DNA of 53,261 bases from Girardia tigrina (lineage: Eukaryota). A program made the position numbers. Positions within the stretch are counted from its first letter, which is position 1. Each line of letters starts with the position of its first letter. Where the stretch lies: the NCBI GenBank assembly GCA_001938485.1, contig MQRK01182058.1:1-53261 (forward strand), written 5' to 3'. Below are positions 6,001 through 9,000 of the stretch, one piece after another.

Positions 6001-9000
6001 ATAGTGATAAGATTATTGTCAAGGTTATTTGGATATAAAACATTGACTTTATTGAGTAAGAGTAATAAAATGAAGCAAAAATATTTTTTAATATTTATTC
6101 CCTTTTAGTTGATTGATTGTCATTTTACAAAAGGCTTTAATTTATCTGAATTTAACAATTATAATAATATTTCGGTAACAAATTTTTGATAACATAATAA
6201 AATTATAAATTATTACTTAATTAATAATAATTTAAAAGTAATTGAGTGACTTTTTATTGAAAACTTTCAGATGAAGTGTAAAAAACTTTTAAAAATTAAA
6301 TTTTTAAAAGTTTTTTTTTCCATTGGCGGCTTGCGGCCTATAAACTTTCTATTGGATACATATGAATATATACCTAAATACATATATAGAAAGTAAGCTA
6401 ATATATTAGAATGGAAAAAAGAATTGACTTCTTGAAACAAAATTTTAATTAACATAAATTTTGCTTCCTGGTACAAATTAGCCCACATTATCCTATAAGA
6501 TACTGTTAAATGGCGTTGTTTTATGTATTTAAAATAGCACATAAAGTATTTGTGTTTATTTAAATAATAAACTTTTTTGTACAGTTATTGGTTTAAGTTA
6601 ATGAGAAAAGTGTTATTTGGAATTGATAATTTTTATTTAGTAATTTTCCCTTTTTAATATCTTCAAAATCTCAGATGGTAAAGTTTTCCTCCCATAAAGT
6701 ATGATAGATGAAACAGTGGTCCCAAACCTTTTTATGATAAAGTTATTCACACAAGAAATACAACTTGTGATCTATTTTGCATACCCTTAGATGTACAGTG
6801 GGACTTCGACCAACGAACCTTATTCGTTCTTATCTCGAAACTCAGTTTTACATTGTATGATTATTTGTTCATTGTTATATATGTGTAAAAGGCAATTATT
6901 ATCAAATTATCAAAAATAAATAAAGAACGCATTGCTTACAAAAGGACAATGTTCGGATTTTGTTTAGTTGTCATCAGTTCCTTCTTTTTGTCTCTTTGAC
7001 GACGGAGGTTTACAAAAATCTATCTAACGTTGACTGTGCCTGTCATTTTCTAAATATCTTTTTTCAGAGATTAAAGAAATTGTATTTAAATATATTAGAT
7101 GCTTTAGATGCAAAGACTTTATTTATATGTTATTCATTAACTAATTCTTTGAATTGTCATTAGTGTTACAAGACTGTTTTTATCTCACTTGTTCATGACT
7201 TTTTTATCTCTTCTTTGTTCTCTGAAGATCTTTGTTTTCCTGTTCTTGTCTTAACTTCTGTAGTTTTTCGTAAGTAGGTTCAACGTTATTTTCCTCTATC
7301 AATTCTTCTTTTGTATTTTCTTTTCCTCTCGTTACGTTCATATTAAGATGTTAAAAAGGAAAAAACACAAGAAGTGTTCAAACATTTGTAAATTTAGTGG
7401 TTCGTAGATCGATGTCTCACTGTTTTAATATGTTTAGTGTAAAAGAAGAAAAGTCATCTATAAATTATTTTGTTTTTACAAGCTTTTATTACGTTTCATT
7501 TGTTTGTTTGTTTGTTTGTCTGTATGGATCAAATCTTGCGATCGAAATTTCACCCACTTCCCGTTGTGCTGGTGACTTGAAATTTTNNNNNNNNNNNNNN
7601 NNNNNNNNNNNNNNNNNNNNNNNNNNNNNNNNNNNNNNNNNNNNNNNNNNNNNNNNNNNNNNNNNNNNNNNNNNNNNNNNNNNNNNNNNNNNNNNNNNNN
7701 NNNNNNNNNNNNNNNNNNNNNNNNNNNNNNNNNNNNNNNNNNNNNNNNNNNNNNNNNNNNNNNNNNNNNNNNNNNNNNNNNNNNNNNNNNNNNNNNNNNN
7801 NNNNNNNNNNNNNNNNNNNNNNNNNNNNNNNNNNNNNNNNNNNNNNNNNNNNNNNNNNNNNNNNNNNNNNNNNNNNNNNNNNNNNNNNNNNNNNNNNNNN
7901 NNNNNNNNNNNNNNNNNNNNNNNNNNNNNNNNNNNNNNNNNNNNNNNGTAGGCTTTGATAATTCAGTCAAAAAATGTGGGAAGTGGGTGAAATAGATACA
8001 GAACCGTAAATATATGACAAATTATAAAAGCTTGTACACCAAAAATTTTTTTGGTATGATATTATTAAATCTTCTTTTCATTTACTAACAGAAAATCCAC
8101 AAAAAGCTTGAATAACTTTTTGTCGTACCACAAAAGAAGTGTCCTTCTTTCAAGAATATGTTAAATTCAACAACTAATTGATAGATTTCTGCTTTGCAAC
8201 GTCCTTGCTTCATAGAAGATGACATTTATTGAAATTAACTCATTAGATAAAGGCTGGAAAATAAATTCTCATCTATATCATGCAATGTTTGATATAGATG
8301 AGAATTTATTTTCCAGCCTTTATCTAATGAGTTAATTTCAATAAATGTCATCTTCTATGAAGCAAGGACGTTGCAAAGCAGAAATCTATCAATTAGTTGT
8401 AAATAATAATACATTATACATAAATAATGATCAACCAATGAAAGCAAACCATAAAATGTCGCGGTTTTACTCATTCTTTTGGAGTGAATTTTTTGTTGAC
8501 TACTTGCATAAAGATTTAAACGCTTTTGAATAATTCTGATATGAGTTATAACTATAATTAGAAAGGATTATTAAAGAATTGAGAAAGAGACAGTTACTTA
8601 TGTTCATTATGATAGACAGAATCACTAAAACCACAGTCAATGGCAGCAACGACAAACATATTCTTTTAACCATAGAATCATTTGCTACAAAACAAATTCC
8701 TGACAATGGATCGCCTTTTATCTACGTTTATAATATATTTATAACAAAATATTTGAGGGAAAAAACTTAACCAACTTCCCCTATTGTTAAACTGATAATG
8801 AGTAGAGATAAGGATATCAAAATAACAAACAACTGTCTGCTGAGGCTGTGACTTCTTGAATTAATTGAATCGCAATTAGTTCCGATTCCGAACAATTTTA
8901 CTTCATCTTTATCTATTCAAATATTAAAATGATATCAATAATAGATAAAAAATTAAAATAAAACAAAAATTATCATTTTATTTAATATAATTCCTTTCTT

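What the first reader, a model, noticed from the sequence alone, without database searches (positions are those of the whole stretch)
8170..8400. Perfect 111-bp hairpin encloses the entire Smoothened TM6 exon and both its splice sites
Seen: the left arm holds the acceptor (ttttccag), the 79-nt TM6 exon and the first intron bases. The right arm is an exact inverted copy in the upstream intron, with a 9-nt loop. Inference: if genomic, the pre-mRNA would fold a long dsRNA masking the exon. Skipping 79 nt causes a frameshift, so it could act as a splicing switch, an ADAR substrate or an endo-siRNA source. Zero mismatches mean it is very recent or an assembly/amplification fold-back artefact.
Basis: partly seen in the sequence, partly recalled or inferred. 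Interest (0 to 1): 0.7.

Follow-up and report, generated by a model that had tools for sequence, protein, structure and literature searches.

The report
Perfect hairpin in Smoothened intron
A flawless 111-base inverted repeat really is written in this flatworm Smoothened gene, but it sits in an intron beside an assembly gap and holds no recognisable exon, so it is a fold-back duplication or an assembly artefact, not a splicing switch.

Summary
The repeat is real in the sequence. Arms 8170-8280 and 8290-8400 pair at 111 of 111 positions around a 9-nt loop. As RNA the stretch folds at -200 kcal/mol, z = -26.

The gene is a Smoothened orthologue on the minus strand. Its only close relative found is the Schmidtea mediterranea Smoothened-like protein P0001. 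Eight exons map to P0001 residues 39-529.

The "TM6 exon" is not supported:
- Similarity to P0001 stops at 8451, 51 nt before the right arm.
- Nothing in the window matches residues 530-1115, which hold TM6, TM7 and the tail.
A control exon scores 117, with 0 of 2000.
- The peptide is not hydrophobic: Kyte-Doolittle 0.53, against 2.84 for the TM5 exon.
- From the likely donor at 8449 it hits a stop after three codons.

So the hairpin is intronic and starts 49 nt past a 5' splice site. It lies 222 nt from a 361-N gap. I cannot decide its origin without reads. I put about 0.5 on a sequencing or assembly fold-back and about 0.4 on a genuine recent palindrome. Interest is low.

The parts
8170..8280 (.). 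Left arm of the perfect inverted repeat (111 nt).
   Evidence: 0 mismatches to the right arm; no support for coding.
8281..8289 (.). 9-nt loop (spacer)
8290..8400 (.). Right arm of the perfect inverted repeat (111 nt). It is contiguous with the intron start and exon H on its high-coordinate side.
8401..8449 (-). First 49 nt of the intron after exon H. The inferred 5' splice site GTTTGC starts at 8449.
   Evidence: Similarity to P0001 ends at 8451. Sequence read. Inferred, not shown by RNA.
8450..8551 (-). Exon H: intracellular loop 3, up to ...KTATFY. It is the last recognisable Smoothened exon in the window.
   Evidence: tblastn to P0001 residues 495-529, 60% identity, E 6.6e-9. Score 117, 0 of 2000 shuffles as good.
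8552..8597 (-). 46-nt intron (GTAACT...ATAG)
   Evidence: Inferred from the frame and the P0001 alignment.
8598..8721 (-). Exon G: extracellular loop 2 and TM5 (IKGDPLSGICFV...)
   Evidence: Pfam Frizzled PF01534 positions 160-200, E 2.2e-6, 27.6 bits. tblastn. Kyte-Doolittle 2.84.
8775..8925 (-). Exon F (TM4 region), followed by a 53-nt intron at 8722-8774
   Evidence: tblastn HSP to P0001 405-519..
14439..14729 (-). Exon E (tblastn HSP limits)
   Evidence: P0001 312-408, 56% identity, E 3e-26
18009..18200 (-). Exon D (tblastn HSP limits)
   Evidence: P0001 249-312, 70% identity, E 2e-24. All 13 PDB matches are Smoothened.
28345..28509 (-). Exon C (tblastn HSP limits). The likely donor GTATGT starts at about 28380.
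   Evidence: P0001 206-258, 56% identity, E 4e-15..
34283..34594 (-). Exon B: second part of the cysteine-rich domain
   Evidence: P0001 99-206, E 1e-25. Pfam Fz E 2.6e-6. 4 of 5 PDB matches are Smoothened.
41439..41621 (-). Exon A: first part of the cysteine-rich domain
   Evidence: P0001 39-99, 46% identity, E 1e-15
7948..8169 (.). Left flank between the hairpin and the gap. It has no gene content. Its gap-proximal part is weakly inverted-similar to sequence on the far side of the gap.
   Evidence: (pair I3)
7587..7947 (.). Run of 361 N, 222 nt from the left arm.

Best explanation
The 231-nt palindrome is an inverted (fold-back) duplication of about 111 nt of non-coding sequence. It lies in the intron that follows the ICL3 exon of a planarian Smoothened gene on the minus strand.

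It starts 49 nt downstream of the likely 5' splice site and contains no exon. One arm is the original intron sequence. The other was copied from the opposite strand after a strand or template switch, followed by a switch back.

I think it slightly more likely that this switch happened outside the animal, in a chimeric library molecule or in contig extension or gap closing of a gapped draft scaffold, than in the germ line. If so, the true locus has one arm only.

Shown: the repeat, its position relative to the exons, and the lack of coding signal in it. Inferred: the donor at 8449, the template-switch mechanism, and the artefactual origin.
For: - Perfect 111/111 arms that end abruptly on both sides.
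- The palindrome lies 222 nt from a 361-N gap, in a window with 6 N runs.
- 3 of the 6 gaps are bracketed by inverted repeats, so this assembly fails around such structures (pairs I2, I3, I5).
- No other copy of the arm in the window, and no convincing direct repeat of the flanks (direct-flank score reached by 657 of 1000 shuffles). This argues against a transposon insertion.
- Similarity to P0001 ends at 8451, and nothing in the window matches residues 530-1115.
- The hairpin peptides match no better than shuffles and are not hydrophobic.
- Fold-back and palindromic chimeras are a documented product of amplification and library preparation (abstracts of PMC6218980 and PMC10908179; PMC12870357 seen only as a search listing).
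- From general knowledge, recalled: long perfect palindromes with short spacers are unstable in cells.
Against: - No reads were available, so the artefact claim is untested.
- An artefact needs two junctions 111 nt apart, at the loop and at 8169/8170, whereas most chimeric molecules have one. In-vivo replication template switching with return explains two junctions naturally.
- The outer junction is internal to the contig, not at its end.
- The neighbouring contig of about 27 kb spans several mariner copies, so the assembly is not uniformly poor.
- An assembler that collapses the two arms could make a slightly diverged natural repeat look perfect. Zero mismatches is therefore weaker evidence than it seems.
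- Proximity to the gap could be coincidence: about 10% of the window lies this close to a gap edge (my estimate).
Confidence: 0.5

Rival explanations
1. Genuine germ-line palindrome. A recent inverted duplication arose by replication template switching, or as a fold-back or MITE-like element, in the Smoothened intron. The pre-mRNA then carries a 111-bp perfect stem 49 nt after a 5' splice site. It masks no exon, so its main expected effects are DNA fragility and possibly Dicer or ADAR processing of the intron.
For: - The sequence is contiguous through both outer junctions and the loop.
- A two-junction structure fits a template switch with return.
- The window is full of elements with inverted ends.
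- The genome is 30% GC, and AT-rich palindromes are known in nature (recalled).
- Collapsing of the arms by an assembler could explain perfect identity without extreme youth.
Against: - No target-site duplication.
- No second copy in 53 kb.
- No Rfam family.
- Perfect identity with a 9-nt spacer is the least stable kind of palindrome (recalled).
- It lies 222 nt from a gap.
Confidence: 0.38
2. Exon H does not end at 8450. It reads on in frame into the right arm (ORF 8358-8567, ...TFYGLLSLVDHYLCIMYYYLQLIDRFLLCNVLAS then a stop), so the right arm holds the 3' end of a short TM6/ECL3 exon and the left arm is its antisense copy.
For: The frame stays open for 31 codons past TFY. It contains an LLC that recalled Smoothened ECL3 to me. 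That resemblance is a recollection, not a test.
Against: - Against P0001 530-640 the stretch scores 25, and 598 of 2000 shuffles do as well.
- Kyte-Doolittle 1.27, against 2.35 for Smed TM6.
- 15.6% of 13879 sampled positions in this window have 31 or more stop-free codons.
- No PDB or Pfam match, though Pfam is a weak test here.
Confidence: 0.05
3. The left arm holds a real 79-nt TM6 exon (8253-8175, minus strand) with its splice sites. The right arm is an inverted copy in the upstream intron, and the stem masks the exon.
For: - AG and GT are in place.
- One frame is open.
- GTT-type donors occur in 2 of 7 other introns of this gene.
- A phase-0 donor candidate, GTTGAT at 8435, would keep the frame.
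Against: - Score 21 against P0001 530-640, with 1284 of 2000 shuffles as good.
- Kyte-Doolittle 0.53, so it cannot be a membrane helix.
- No PDB hit at E up to 10. No Pfam hit, though that test is weak.
- With the best donor (8449, phase 1) the frame stops after three codons.
- The joined reading was not searched, by instruction.
Confidence: 0.03

Closest known systems
Fold-back (palindromic, inverted-chimera) artefacts of amplification, library preparation and long-read sequencing
   Same: A sequence followed after a few bases by its exact reverse complement, with perfect identity, in an assembly with gaps (abstracts of PMC6218980 and PMC10908179; PMC12870357 search listing only).
   Different: Those chimeras usually have one junction and arms as long as the molecule. 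Here the copy ends after 111 nt and the sequence goes on into something else. Read support could not be examined.
Natural AT-rich palindromes and inverted duplications made by replication template switching (recalled, e.g. human PATRRs)
   Same: AT-rich, near-perfect arms of the order of 100 nt, a very short spacer, and no target-site duplication.
   Different: No population or read data here. Known examples are usually polymorphic and slightly imperfect at the centre.
Fold-back and MITE-type transposable elements (recalled)
   Same: Almost the whole element consists of two long inverted arms. The window holds other elements with inverted ends.
   Different: No target-site duplication and no second copy in the window. 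The genome-wide copy number could not be tested.
Hairpin-RNA (hpRNA) endo-siRNA loci and ADAR-edited intronic inverted repeats (recalled)
   Same: A transcribed long perfect stem.
   Different: No small-RNA or editing data. No Rfam family. A single 111-bp stem in an intron with no sign of conservation.

Membership tests
Smoothened (class F receptor) gene | Extracellular Fz-type cysteine-rich domain | tested here: met
   ORF 34241-34594(-): Pfam Fz E 2.6e-6, though its 28.4 bits fall below the curated 32.1. tblastn to P0001 39-206 gives E 1e-15 and 1e-25.
Smoothened (class F receptor) gene | Frizzled/Smoothened seven-helix membrane region | tested here: inconclusive
   The TM5 ORF matches PF01534 at 27.6 bits, above the cut-off of 22.3. 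Exons matching P0001 206-529 are present. TM6 and TM7 (P0001 530-640) were not found anywhere in the window. They may lie in the N run or beyond the window.
Smoothened (class F receptor) gene | Closer to Smoothened than to Frizzled | tested here: met
   All 13 PDB matches of exon D are Smoothened. 4 of 5 PDB matches of the CRD ORF are Smoothened. The only close relative among 1.84 billion representatives is named 'Smoothened-like protein, Schmidtea mediterranea'.
   The best 19-residue Kyte-Doolittle mean is 0.53, against 2.84 for the TM5 exon and 2.35 for Smed TM6.
   Score 21, with 1284 of 2000 shuffles as good. The control exon scores 117, with 0 of 2000. It is not among the 25 best ORFs.
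   With the donor at 8449 (phase 1) the frame reads A F I then a stop. Only a weaker phase-0 donor at 8435 would fit. The joined product was not built or searched.
   No RNA data.
Fold-back assembly or sequencing artefact | Exact inverted copy next to a contig end or gap | tested here: met
   111/111 identity, 222 nt from the N run 7587-7947.
Fold-back assembly or sequencing artefact | Not supported by unamplified reads spanning the whole structure | not testable with these tools
   No reads.
MITE or fold-back transposon | Target-site duplication | tested here: not met
   The flanks ...aaattca and aaataat... do not repeat each other. The direct-flank score is reached by 657 of 1000 shuffles.
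MITE or fold-back transposon | Multiple copies in the genome | tested here: inconclusive
   No other copy in the 53-kb window. No collection with this genome was available.
hpRNA or endo-siRNA locus | Small RNAs from the arms | not testable with these tools
   Only the fold was computed. No Rfam match.

The most novel reading that the evidence does not exclude
The palindrome is genuine in the animal's germ line. A perfect 111-bp double-stranded stem then forms in every Smoothened pre-mRNA, 49 nt after a 5' splice site. It would act on the gene in one of two ways: by feeding Dicer or ADAR as an intronic hairpin-RNA source, or by changing the use of the downstream, still unlocated TM6 exon. Either would tie Hedgehog signalling in a planarian to an RNA-structure switch.
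Probability: 0.05. Interest if true: 0.5.

Novelty: not a real feature. Interest (0 to 1): 0.12.

Why it matters
As claimed, a hairpin masking a frame-shifting exon of Smoothened would have been a striking RNA-structure switch in a key developmental receptor. The evidence removes the exon from the hairpin. What is left is either an error to fix in a draft planarian assembly or an ordinary recent intronic palindrome.

The practical value is a warning for annotation:
- The Smoothened model in this scaffold stops after ICL3.
- TM6, TM7 and the tail are missing from the window.
- Gene predictors could be tempted to use the spurious ttttccag 'exon'.

Tried and rejected
**My first idea: the sense reading of the right arm (ORF 8358-8567) is TM6/ECL3.** Rejected after comparison with P0001.
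- Score 25, with 598 of 2000 shuffles as good.
- Kyte-Doolittle 1.27.
- An open run of that length occurs at 15.6% of sampled positions.

**My idea that 7970-8077(-) is TM7.** Rejected.
- Its score of 41 lies within the noise list.
- The stretch has 16-nt exact inverted matches to 7547-7562 and 52468-52483.
- It belongs to the inverted pair I3 across the gap.

**Searches that gave little or nothing**
- Word-indexed protein searches with the TM5 ORF and the CRD ORF (lengths 'longer') found nothing. With P0001 400-660 the search found only P0001 itself.
I replaced it with single ORFs.
- Pfam found nothing in 4 hairpin-region ORFs and 2 left-flank ORFs. A control shows Pfam also fails on the Smed TM6-TM7 fragment alone, so this negative carries little weight.
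- PDB searches of ORFs 8358-8567 and 8170-8268 gave no Smoothened hit. The exon E search gave no hit at all.
- A regex scan with nine short recalled class-F motifs found only the ECL2 motif at 8503-8721.
- Rfam at gathering thresholds gave 0 matches in the window.

**Flank comparison for a longer, decayed palindrome.** The inverted score of 21 was reached by 48 of 1000 shuffles, on a 31-nt A-rich alignment. This is borderline and I did not pursue it.

**Not tried**
- Structure prediction, complex prediction and atlas searches, which are irrelevant to a non-coding repeat.
- Genome contigs, which holds only bacteria and archaea.
- The spliced, joined protein model. All searches were exon by exon.

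Full report
**1. The observation**

Reading 7900-8700, the repeat finder and a base-by-base check agree. Positions 8170-8280 and 8290-8400 are complementary at 111 of 111 positions, with 9 unpaired bases (8281-8289) between them. Immediately outside, 7 of the next 15 positions mismatch, so the repeat ends sharply on both sides.

- In the 53-kb window the arm has only two full-length matches, itself and its partner. The next best match is 16 nt.
- Among 27 inverted pairs found with arms up to 1.5 kb apart, no other has arms this long and this perfect around a short loop.
- As RNA, 8120-8450 (minus strand) folds at -200.2 kcal/mol, against -61.0 +/- 5.3 for 100 shuffles.

The repeat is real and is not chance. 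A run of 361 N (7587-7947) lies 222 nt to its left. The window is 30% G+C and has six N runs.

**2. The gene**

- The ORF at 34241-34594(-) matches Pfam Fz, and the ORF at 8503-8721(-) matches the Frizzled/Smoothened membrane region.
- 4 of 5 PDB matches of the former are Smoothened.
- All 13 PDB matches of 18009-18200(-) are Smoothened.
- A full HMMER scan of 1.84 billion representatives with the CRD ORF found two proteins.
  - One is an unrelated repetitive protein.
  - The other, P0001 (1115 aa), is named Smoothened-like protein of Schmidtea mediterranea by its sources.

I take the window for a planarian related to that species, not for human.

Local tblastn of P0001 against the window maps minus-strand exons as follows:

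| P0001 residues | Window coordinates | Identity |
|---|---|---|
| 39-99 | 41621-41439 | 46% |
| 99-206 | 34594-34283 | 42% |
| 206-258 | 28509-28345 | 56% |
| 249-312 | 18200-18009 | 70% |
| 312-408 | 14729-14439 | 56% |
| about 405-455 | 8925-8775 | part of one HSP (405-519), 51% overall |
| 456-494 | 8721-8598 | part of the same HSP |
| 495-529 | 8555-8451 | 60% |

Two introns are tiny: 46 nt (8552-8597) and 53 nt (8722-8774). The others are several kb long and are filled with mariner, reverse-transcriptase and other mobile-element ORFs. All searches were made exon by exon. The joined, spliced model was not built or searched.

**3. What lies in the hairpin**

Similarity to P0001 ends at ...KTATFY (8451). 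The next bases read G|GTTTGC, a GT donor. The seven other donors of this gene all begin GT, and two of them begin GTT.

Nothing in the window, on either strand, matches P0001 530-1115.
- tblastn gave only noise.
- A Smith-Waterman scan of all ORFs of 10 or more residues against residues 530-640 gave top scores of 39-54. These were scattered over unrelated places. None lay in the hairpin arms. One, the left-flank ORF 7970-8077(-), scored 41 and is discussed in Tried and rejected.

Candidates tested one by one against residues 530-640:

| Candidate | Score | Shuffles as good, of 2000 |
|---|---|---|
| In-frame continuation after TFY, 8358-8450(-) | 25 | 598 |
| Loop-spanning ORF | 21 | 1633 |
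| Control: exon H against its own region of P0001 | 117 | 0 |

Hydropathy points the same way (best 19-residue Kyte-Doolittle mean):

| Stretch | Mean |
|---|---|
| Continuation after TFY | 1.27 |
| TM5 exon | 2.84 |
| Smed TM6 | 2.35 |

- Two of the three frames of the 79-nt stretch hold stops.
- The phase set by the donor at 8449 is one of those two frames.
- The 31 open codons after TFY are not remarkable: 15.6% of 13879 sampled positions do as well.
- Pfam and PDB found nothing in the hairpin peptides. Pfam also misses the Smed TM6-TM7 fragment on its own, so I give that negative little weight.

Conclusion: the hairpin is intronic, begins 49 nt after a 5' splice site and encloses no recognisable exon. 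The 'ttttccag' is the reverse complement of ctggaaaa in the other arm.

**4. Where the rest of the gene is**

TM6, TM7 and the tail are absent from the window. They may lie beyond position 1. This stays open.

**5. Origin of the palindrome**

Both readings need two junctions: one at the loop and one at 8169/8170 or 8400/8401.

For an artefact:
- Perfect identity.
- A gap 222 nt away.
- A scaffold in which 3 of 6 gaps sit between inverted-repeat arms (I2, I3, I5). A repeat family also abuts two gaps: 7470-7586 matches 52399-52507 at 90.6%.
- No target-site duplication and no second copy.
- Palindromic chimeras are well documented (abstracts of PMC6218980 and PMC10908179; PMC12870357 search listing only).

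For a genuine palindrome:
- Both outer junctions are internal to a contig.
- A template switch with return explains a 111-nt copy better than a single chimeric junction does.
- An assembler that merges both arms could erase small differences between them.

Without reads I cannot decide. I put about 0.5 on an artefact and about 0.4 on a genuine recent inverted duplication. The remainder goes to the two readings in which an arm holds coding sequence.

**6. How it would work if real**

The pre-mRNA would carry a very stable intronic stem close to, but not covering, the 5' splice site. No exon or splice site of the recognisable gene is sequestered. The expected effect on Smoothened splicing is therefore small. 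Processing by Dicer or ADAR is possible but untested. At the DNA level such a palindrome would be a fragile site (recalled general knowledge).

**7. Comparison and verdict**

The closest known things are:
- fold-back chimeras of sequencing and assembly;
- natural AT-rich palindromes made by template switching;
- fold-back or MITE elements, whose defining target-site duplication was not met;
- hpRNA loci, which are untestable here.

No search of the literature for this particular hairpin was made. Three paper searches concerned planarian Smoothened and artefact types.

The finding as stated, an exon-masking hairpin, is not a real feature. The repeat itself is either an error or an ordinary intronic palindrome. 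Interest is low.

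Noticed in passing
8552-8597 and 8722-8774 (minus strand): Two very small introns (46 and 53 nt) sit next to introns of 3-7 kb full of mobile elements. Intron sizes in this gene are strongly bimodal.
   Followed up: partly
7587-7947, 17704-17746, 44703-45430: Three of the six N runs lie between the arms of inverted repeats (I3 7462-7505/8008-8051; I2 17397-17442/17820-17865 at 98%; I5 44585-44619/45518-45552). The assembly seems to break inside elements with inverted ends.
   Followed up: partly
7470-7586 and 52399-52507: A repeat family with 90.6% identity over 117 nt. 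Both copies end at or near an N run.
   Followed up: partly
window 1-8450: No match to residues 530-1115 of the planarian Smoothened (TM6, TM7, tail). The gene model is incomplete in this window. The 361-N run is about the size of a TM6-TM7 exon.
   Followed up: partly
33049-33711 (+): A 221-aa open frame with BTB (E 7e-12) and BACK (E 6e-9) domains on the strand opposite to Smoothened, inside its intron between the two CRD exons. It could be a nested gene or a fragment.
   Followed up: partly
12432-13775 (-); 48204-49166 (+); also 18362-18934 and 19400-19987: Mariner-type elements. The first has 25-nt inverted ends (96%) around Transposase_1 and HTH_48 frames, which are split over several frames. 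The second has DDE_3 and Transposase_1.
   Followed up: partly
36594-39764 (+): A block of long open frames with a Ulp1-type protease domain (37154-37552) and reverse transcriptase (39048-39410). It is probably one retroelement.
   Followed up: partly
1710-4480 (-): Three long open frames in a row. One has a FLYWCH zinc finger (E 2e-6) and two have no Pfam match. Probably a mobile element of unclear type.
   Followed up: partly
1-540: A G+C-rich island (53-61% against 30% overall) with a 21-nt tandem repeat at 363-433, interrupted by an N run at 240-317.
   Followed up: no
8087-8115 versus 8467-8497: A 31-nt A-rich stretch of the left flank aligns in inverted orientation with part of exon H (score reached by 48 of 1000 shuffles). 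This is borderline. It could be chance, or a trace of an older and larger inverted duplication.
   Followed up: no
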